A DNA stretch of 64,000 bases from Octopus vulgaris (Eukaryota), in contig OX597823.1 in NCBI GenBank assembly GCA_951406725.2, positions 14,694,001 to 14,758,000 of the forward strand, in the 5' to 3' direction. The notes under the pieces are model-generated. The model saw only the letters and a list, made by a program, of their open reading frames with translations, was not told the origin of the DNA and did not search any database. Both the position numbers and the translations under genes were made by a program. Positions 34,191 to 34,320 of this stretch are shown here, in pieces (the first letter of the stretch is position 1; the number at the start of each line of letters is the position of its first letter).

Positions 34191-34320
34191 TTTATTTTAT
34201 AGAAGGTGCTTCTACAGGACTAGAACTGTTTCATTCAAAAGAAATCATCAGGAAGCTTCCTGATGATTTCTTTTGAATGAAACAGTTCTAGTCCTGTAGA
34301 AGCTCCTTCTATAAAATAAA
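34191..34320. repeat. 130 bp spacer-less palindrome (one mismatch) centred on AAGCTT, in a TA-flanked insert (about 34122-34320)
   Basis: tttattttatagaaggtgcttctac...catcaggaag|cttcctgatg...gtagaagctccttctataaaataaa. Confidence 0.95.
34254..34304 (+). ncRNA. Type I hammerhead ribozyme (mirror copy on the minus strand at about 34208-34257)
   Basis: agcttc-CTGATGA-t ttc tttt gaa t-GAAA-cag ttctagtc ctg-TA-gaagct. Stem I is 6 bp, the cleavage triplet is GUA, and stem II has a U-U closing pair. Confidence 0.65.

What the first reader, a model, noticed from the sequence alone, without database searches (positions are those of the whole stretch)
34191..34320. 130 bp palindrome encoding a hammerhead on each strand
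Seen: a spacer-less palindrome (65 bp arms, one mismatch) whose centre AAGCTT also supplies the 5' strand of stem I. Each strand reads gcttc-CTGATGA-stem II-GAAA-cag..ctg-TA-gaagc. Inference: a transcript in either direction carries both a ribozyme and its antisense, so the long hairpin would compete with the ribozyme fold. This could be a self-inhibited switch, an siRNA source, or a fold-back product of reverse transcription, reminiscent of ambisense viroid-like RNAs. The DNA could also extrude a cruciform.
Basis: partly seen in the sequence, partly recalled or inferred. Interest (0 to 1): 0.72.

Follow-up and report, generated by a model that had tools for sequence, protein, structure and literature searches.

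The report
Penelope retrotransposon front ends joined head-to-head
This palindrome is one of many near-identical stubs of a common jumping gene (a Penelope-like retrotransposon), likely made when two DNA copies ran off the start of the element's RNA and were joined head to head; that RNA is predicted to begin with a self-cutting hammerhead, which the palindrome itself would be unable to fold.

Summary
The palindrome is real, but it is not a stand-alone switch. It is part of a 199-bp insert (34122-34320) in (TA)n: two head-to-head copies of the front end of a Hydra-clade Penelope-like retrotransposon, one carrying the family's 69-bp 'tail'. The exact junction occurs at 174 loci; 5,762 arms carry the hammerhead's 3' half; two copies have an intact ORF between direct repeats. 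The motif has the U·U-closed stem II of published Hydra-type hammerheads, and common inherited variants avoid its core and stems. Arms stop at or just inside stem I's first base, 29 nt after a TATA box, often with an extra G. The RNA therefore likely starts, capped, with the ribozyme, and two cDNAs primed at two sites anneal through the self-complementary AGCT. In the palindrome the hairpin (-101 kcal/mol) beats the ribozyme fold (-28), so it is predicted inactive. Single-arm indels cluster just after the predicted cut site: a possible record of cleavage, though the commonest one also fits hairpin-templated correction. Cleavage, transcription start and expression are unshown. The scan noted similar head-to-head hammerhead insertions at other places of this genome.

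The parts
34083..34121 (.). (TA)n target, left flank
   Evidence: same flank type at the 16 loci
34122..34190 (-). 69-bp 'tail' of the Penelope-like element; in intact copies it is the sequence between the terminal repeat and the ORF; its outer end is inferred to be one reverse-transcription start site
   Evidence: tail on exactly one arm in 50 of 50 palindromes; tail runs on into the ORF at 11 loci, 9 of them past the ATG region
34191..34257 (-). arm 1 (tail-bearing): element front end from the inferred transcription start; hammerhead 34257-34207, predicted cut between 34213 and 34212; private change at 34207 shortens stem I to 5 bp
   Evidence: contigs of 4 runs read A at 34207
34254..34257 (.). 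shared self-complementary AGCT: junction microhomology, first four bases of stem I and inferred first bases of the RNA
   Evidence: exact 36-nt junction at 174 loci; TATA box at -29 in 72 of 73 native arms
34254..34304 (+). arm 2 hammerhead: stem I 34254-59/34299-304, core CUGAUGA 34260-66, U·U then 3-bp stem II 34267-78, GAAA 34279-82, stem III with 8-nt loop 34282-97, predicted cut after 34298 (GUA)
   Evidence: sequence, descriptor, same architecture in File S2 of PMC8557442
34305..34320 (+). AT-rich end of the tail-less arm, inferred second reverse-transcription start site
   Evidence: tail-less arms end at or within a few bases of this point
34321..34422 (.). (TA)n-rich target, right flank

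Best explanation
The palindrome is a minimal head-to-head insertion of a Hydra-clade Penelope-like retrotransposon, likely formed when the two ends of a cut (TA)n site each primed a cDNA on the element's RNA, both ran off its probably capped 5' end, and the two cDNA ends annealed through AGCT. Shown: membership in the family, the intact parents, the one-sided tail, the pile-up of arm ends at stem I, the TATA box 29 nt upstream, the excess of G before the first base. Inferred: transcription starts at the A of AGCUUC, so the RNA opens with a 45-nt hammerhead leader; the extra G is a copy of the cap; the two priming sites lie 67 and 136 nt from the RNA start; the same sites in the 3' repeat give long copies. 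The ribozyme is predicted to act in the parent RNA (it would clip the capped leader). In the palindrome it is predicted to be locked in the hairpin, and the stub lacks the TATA box.
For: 174 loci with the exact junction; 432 arms with native upstream sequence, many in inverted pairs kb apart around RT/endonuclease ORFs; L270 and L271 hold 722- and 718-codon open frames between direct repeats. Hydra motifs RWR, DKT, CxCX5C, CxxC...CxH and (TA)n targets match the clade text. Of 100 tail-bearing arms taken in genome order, 19 read through into upstream sequence, 29 stop exactly at AGCT, 46 stop 1-25 nt inside it, 6 not placed; 68 have an inverted partner within 175 bp. Where filler precedes AGCTTCC, its last base is G in 12 of 22 (p 0.003 against 0.25), while the native base is G in 1 of 22; both arms carry the G in L185 and L299. 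The perfect junction recurs in different subfamily backgrounds. In L047 and L052 the tail is on the short inverted arm while the ORF-bearing arm lacks it, so neither arm copies the other. Changes at the cut site are shared by both arms in 1 of 105 pairs. In vitro, a Penelope protein cut and extended both target strands and started at two sites bounding the tail (PMC11167929).
Against: No transcript end, cap or cleavage was observed. Many G-type junctions can also be read as microhomology with the partner arm. Arms nearly always share subfamily and even rare variants, which fold-back copying also predicts. Pfam gives only a weak RVT_1 hit on one fragment (E 0.003) and no GIY-YIG hit for this family; the clade call rests on motifs read by eye, no tree was built. 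The hammerhead fold is not the predicted minimum even for a single arm (-7.4 against -9.4 kcal/mol; stem I pair probability under 0.1).
Confidence: 0.72

Rival explanations
1. Same element, but the second arm is a fold-back copy: one cDNA (or an antisense RNA) self-primes at AGCT and copies itself.
For: Proposed for inverted Penelope junctions in PMC3846280; arms share inherited and rare variants (33 shared changes at N7 and the two loops in 105 pairs); junction fillers often look like short snap-backs; L049 is a palindrome with arms of over 2 kb.
Against: Cut-site changes sit on one arm only in nearly all pairs; both arms can end with their own extra G (L185, L299); L047 and L052 have arms that each hold sequence the other lacks.
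Confidence: 0.18
2. A non-autonomous 199-bp hairpin element that amplifies as a unit, like a MITE or retrozyme.
For: 174 loci share the exact junction; the 40 best-scoring candidates are 98-100% identical.
Against: The junction recurs with different subfamily variants on both arms; it is about 11 of 100 sampled insertions among a spread of other junctions; no tandem monomers; no promoter in the stub.
Confidence: 0.04
3. A host-used, self-inhibited ribozyme switch or small-RNA source.
For: Any read-through transcript would form a 65-bp hairpin, which could feed RNA silencing against the family.
Against: A 73 kcal/mol gap leaves no room for switching; the locus is a young, near-identical copy among many; no coding exon was evident in the window.
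Confidence: 0.05
4. Assembly fold-back artefact.
For: Perfect palindromes are a known long-read artefact (recalled); no contig spans the whole stretch.
Against: Asymmetric tail, unrelated flanks on the two sides, 174 loci, a private mismatch, and a contig of run X8 across the centre (34220-34304, 3 other letters, 1 gap).
Confidence: 0.01

Closest known systems
Hydra clade of C-terminal EN+ Penelope-like elements, incl. Hydra-1_Obim (Craig et al. 2021, PMC8557442)
   Same: RT plus C-terminal endonuclease with RW(K/R), DKT, CxCX5C, CxxC and CxH motifs; (TA)n targets; hammerhead with CUGAUGA-U ... U-GAA core as in 10 of the 11 Penelope-n_HM rows seen in File S2; inverted 5'-truncated arm and one-sided tail.
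   Different: A different family from Hydra-1_Obim (protein differs by eye; the two hammerhead words searched are absent from the supplement). Tail is 69 bp rather than 30-40; about 2.5 kb of microsatellite-rich 3' region; 8-nt loop III against 1-3 nt.
[quoted passage not shown]
   Same: Type-I motif in the terminal repeats; thousands of dispersed truncated copies; pairs on opposite strands were noted there (about 100-700 bp apart in Schistosoma).
   Different: Here stem III is 4 bp, G10.1-C11.1 is replaced by U·U, and the two motifs overlap by 4 bp at stem I.
PAc (Poseidon of Anolis; Frangieh et al. 2024, PMC11167929)
   Same: Two priming sites bounding the tail, both strands cut and extended, AT-rich targets; uncleaved RNA is the main template.
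   Different: Other clade; there the ORF starts inside the hammerhead, here about 135 nt after the cut site. The paper (parts read) does not explain inverted arms and found no RNA ends at the cut site.
Adineta vaga Penelope inverted pLTRs (Arkhipova et al. 2013, PMC3846280)
   Same: Head-to-head inverted junctions with palindromes, TATA plus initiator in the pLTR, optional tail.
   Different: That paper proposes self-priming on an antisense template; the copies here fit two sense-templated cDNAs better.
Non-LTR retrozymes and viroid-like ambisense RNAs
   Same: Small, non-coding, type-I hammerhead.
   Different: No tandem monomers or sign of a circular unit; both motifs derive from one sense motif.

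Membership tests
EN+ Penelope-like element | RT plus GIY-YIG-type endonuclease in one ORF of the parent | tested here: met
   Open frames of 722/718 codons; RVT_1 weak on a fragment; Atlas neighbours carry RVT_1 or GIY-YIG on 10-26% of members; endonuclease motif VY...YIG read by eye, no Pfam hit
EN+ Penelope-like element | pseudo-LTRs, direct or inverted | tested here: met
   direct in L270, L271; inverted in L047-L055, L062, L063
EN+ Penelope-like element | [quoted passage not shown] | tested here: met
   50 of 50 palindromes; L006 has it on both ends
Hydra clade | RWK-like motif, DKT, CxCX5C linker, CxxC and CxH around E and N | tested here: met
   RWR, DKT, CNCPDKTTC, CDLC, CMH in L270/L271
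Hydra clade | (TA)n targeting | tested here: met
Hydra clade | groups with Hydra RTs in a phylogeny | not tested
   reference proteins seen only in the paper's supplement, compared by eye
Type-I hammerhead ribozyme | core CUGANGA, GAAA, NUH triplet, three helices | tested here: met
Type-I hammerhead ribozyme | G10.1-C11.1 closing pair | tested here: not met
   U·U here, as in 10 of 11 Penelope-n_HM rows; Rfam models do not hit
Type-I hammerhead ribozyme | variation confined to neutral positions | tested here: met
   variants in 3 or more copies at 4 leader positions, all N7 or loops (p about 0.012); no compensatory pairs to score
Type-I hammerhead ribozyme | self-cleavage at GUA | not testable with these tools
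   only indirect: indel cluster
Non-LTR retrozyme | tandem monomers each with a hammerhead | tested here: not met
   single head-to-head unit here and in the sampled short inserts
MITE | symmetric terminal inverted repeats amplified as one unit | tested here: not met
   one-sided tail; junction formed in several subfamilies

The most novel reading that the evidence does not exclude
The element's RNA starts, capped, at the first base of its hammerhead; the ribozyme cuts off this 45-nt leader in vivo, and the reverse transcriptase sometimes copies across the cut or re-joined site, leaving indels at +1 to +5 in single arms. The thousands of stubs would then be a genomic record of Penelope hammerhead cleavage in a living animal and of two-ended priming.
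Probability: 0.3. Interest if true: 0.7.

Novelty: new member of a known kind. Interest (0 to 1): 0.4.

Why it matters
What Penelope hammerheads do in vivo and how inverted pLTRs and one-sided tails arise are open in the papers read (PMC8557442, PMC11167929, PMC4209133). This family gives a precise, testable geometry: TATA box, start at stem I, cut at +45, two priming sites, intact parents, and thousands of insertion products. The single locus itself is likely inert.

Tried and rejected
Rfam: nothing at gathering threshold, only chance hairpin matches below it. Splice-acceptor reading of the stop at stem I (pyrimidines plus AG, as in D. virilis): rejected because truncated arms keep the AG and share no upstream exon in 30 of 30 G-type loci. 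Stops at the cut site as a major class: not found; 10 palindromes centred on the second AGCT and 19 short-arm-to-stem-I joints genome-wide (counted from the listing), both explicable by microhomology alone. Independent check of the cut-site deletions: not listed in contigs of 4 runs at 1% share; inconclusive, since contigs drop rare variants. No RNA holder listed; one run guessed to be RNA covers the repeat, not evidence of transcription. Pfam VtrA_C hit below cut-off taken as spurious; PDB sequence search empty. Dimer fold through loop III is possible on paper (-14.8 kcal/mol for two strands against -2.4 for one) but untested. Sequence look-up in earlier findings gave nothing for this family.

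Full report
Observation. The palindrome is as described: centre 34255/34256, 66-bp arms, one mismatch at 34207/34304, folding at -100.7 kcal/mol. Each strand reads stem I (AGCUUC), CUGAUGA, U, a 3-bp stem II, U, GAAA, a 4-bp stem III with an 8-nt loop, GUA, GAAGC(U/A). A descriptor finds both copies and two other motifs in the window, and none in 12.8 Mb of shuffled sequence. Rfam gives no hammerhead hit.

It is a repeat, and larger than reported. The 130-mer has 464 candidates in the 2.8-Gb genome, 40 of them scored, at 98-100% identity. All 16 fetched loci carry a 69-bp extension, on one side in 15 and on both in L006, in TA-rich flanks. The insert here is 34122-34320. The exact 36-nt junction occurs at 174 loci; in the first 50, all fetched, the tail is on exactly one arm. 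A 31-mer over the cut site occurs 5,762 times.

The parent. 432 arms are preceded by a fixed native sequence instead of the mirror arm, often as inverted pairs kb apart. Six of the 11 larger pairs printed hold RT or endonuclease frames of this family, and one holds a different element. L270 and L271 have 722- and 718-codon frames between direct repeats, in the order TATA box, hammerhead, tail, ATG. The protein has RWR, DKT, CxCX5C, CxxC and CxH, the marks of the Hydra clade of Penelope-like elements (PMC8557442, section 11 read), and resembles but is not Hydra-1_Obim (supplement passages compared by eye). Pfam and PDB barely see it; Atlas neighbours are animal proteins, some with RVT_1 or GIY-YIG. 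Inverted 5'-truncated arms and one-sided tails are standard for these elements (passages). The host is called octopus in earlier scan notes; I did not test that.

Is the hammerhead real? It lacks G10.1-C11.1, which PMC4209133 (parts 1-2 of 4 read) calls highly conserved. But 10 of the 11 Penelope-n_HM rows shown in File S2 have the same U·U closing. Variants carried by three or more copies fall at four leader positions: N7, two in loop II, one in loop III; drawing 4 of 4 from 13 neutral among 36 unanchored positions has p about 0.012. Two singleton shared changes hit stem I. Upstream of stem I, 7 of 21 positions are polymorphic. The fold is weak alone (-7.4 against a -9.4 alternative); a related ribozyme needed its protein (PMC11167929, parts 1-2 of 4 read). 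In the palindrome the forced ribozyme fold costs 73 kcal/mol, so it is predicted inactive here.

Why the centre is at AGCT. I took the first 100 of 1,612 tail-bearing arms in genome order. 19 read into upstream sequence, 29 stop at the A of AGCTTCC, 46 stop 1-25 nt inside, 6 were not placed; 68 have an inverted partner within 175 bp; about 11 are the perfect palindrome. TATAAAT lies at -29 in 72 of 73 native arms. Where filler precedes AGCTTCC its last base is G in 12 of 22, while the native base is G in 1 of 22. Genome-wide, of 704 arms without A at that place, 432 are native, 213 have G and 59 are left, though many G cases can also be read as partner sequence. An ORF-bearing copy, L253, also begins there with extra G. 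Inference: the RNA starts, capped, at stem I, and cDNAs run off that end. The cap idea came from an earlier scan note and was tested here. PMC11167929 showed both strands extended and two start sites bounding the tail. Two cDNAs, one from each site, both end in AGCT, which pairs with itself. That gives this exact structure and explains a tail on one arm. Fold-back remains a rival, since arms share variants, but it does not fit L047 and L052, nor independent extra Gs on both arms.

A possible trace of cleavage. In 105 inverted pairs, single-arm indels number 39 at +1 to +5 after the predicted cut against 7 in nine control positions; 42 of 210 arms are altered at -1 to +5, and 1 pair shares its change. 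Control windows of six positions give 13 and 17 arms. Genome-wide, loss of G+4 occurs 138 times against 1 for a control G loss, that is 2.3% of arms, lower than in my sample. Against the cleavage reading: losing G+4 perfects a 7-bp hairpin with the stem III/loop III segment, so quasi-palindrome correction (recalled mechanism) could explain that class; other indels remain in excess (19 against 7, p 1e-4); contigs of four runs did not list the deletions, so assembly error is not excluded; few copies stop at the cut site. I rate this reading at 0.3.

Reality of the locus. Contigs from four runs cover all 29 bins, one crosses the centre, and they read A at 34207, so the mismatch is private to this copy; none spans the whole stretch, and one run may be the assembly's own source.

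Novelty. The kind is known: a Hydra-clade insertion with inverted arm, tail and hammerhead. I found no paper on capped run-off at the hammerhead or on indels at its cut site in six answered searches aimed near these points; the library lacks most subscription papers, and bioRxiv supplements are closed. PMC7229834 and PMC3846280 were seen as passages, the retrozyme preprint as part 1 of 5. Earlier scan notes describe similar head-to-head insertions elsewhere in this genome. Verdict: new member of a known kind, interest 0.4.

Noticed in passing
window 15002-14937, minus strand: A second, unrelated type-I hammerhead (7-bp stem I, G10.1-C11.1, long loop II) begins within a base or two of a (TA)n run at the 5' strand of stem I; probably a stub of another Penelope family that also starts at its ribozyme.
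   Followed up: no
window 9780-9840, plus strand: Weaker hammerhead-like match lying between two similar stretches of about 110 bp (near 9400-9510 and 9880-9990) next to a TA run.
   Followed up: no
L063:3002-5324, minus strand: A different Penelope-like element (RVT_1 and GIY-YIG Pfam hits above cut-off) lies between two arms of this family.
   Followed up: partly
L049:581-5487: An insertion that is itself a palindrome with arms of over 2 kb, made of the element's microsatellite-rich 3' region.
   Followed up: partly
L006: A copy with the tail on both arms, about 270 bp fully palindromic; not seen among the 50.
   Followed up: no
window 23341-23611 and 23916-24186: Two inverted copies (94%) of a 271-bp SINE-like repeat, 304 bp apart.
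   Followed up: no
window 38249-42804: 4.5-kb (ATAC)n array.
   Followed up: no
L270, L271 and L281-L299: A further abundant subfamily with N7 = A and a different loop II makes the same head-to-head stubs and includes both intact copies.
   Followed up: partly
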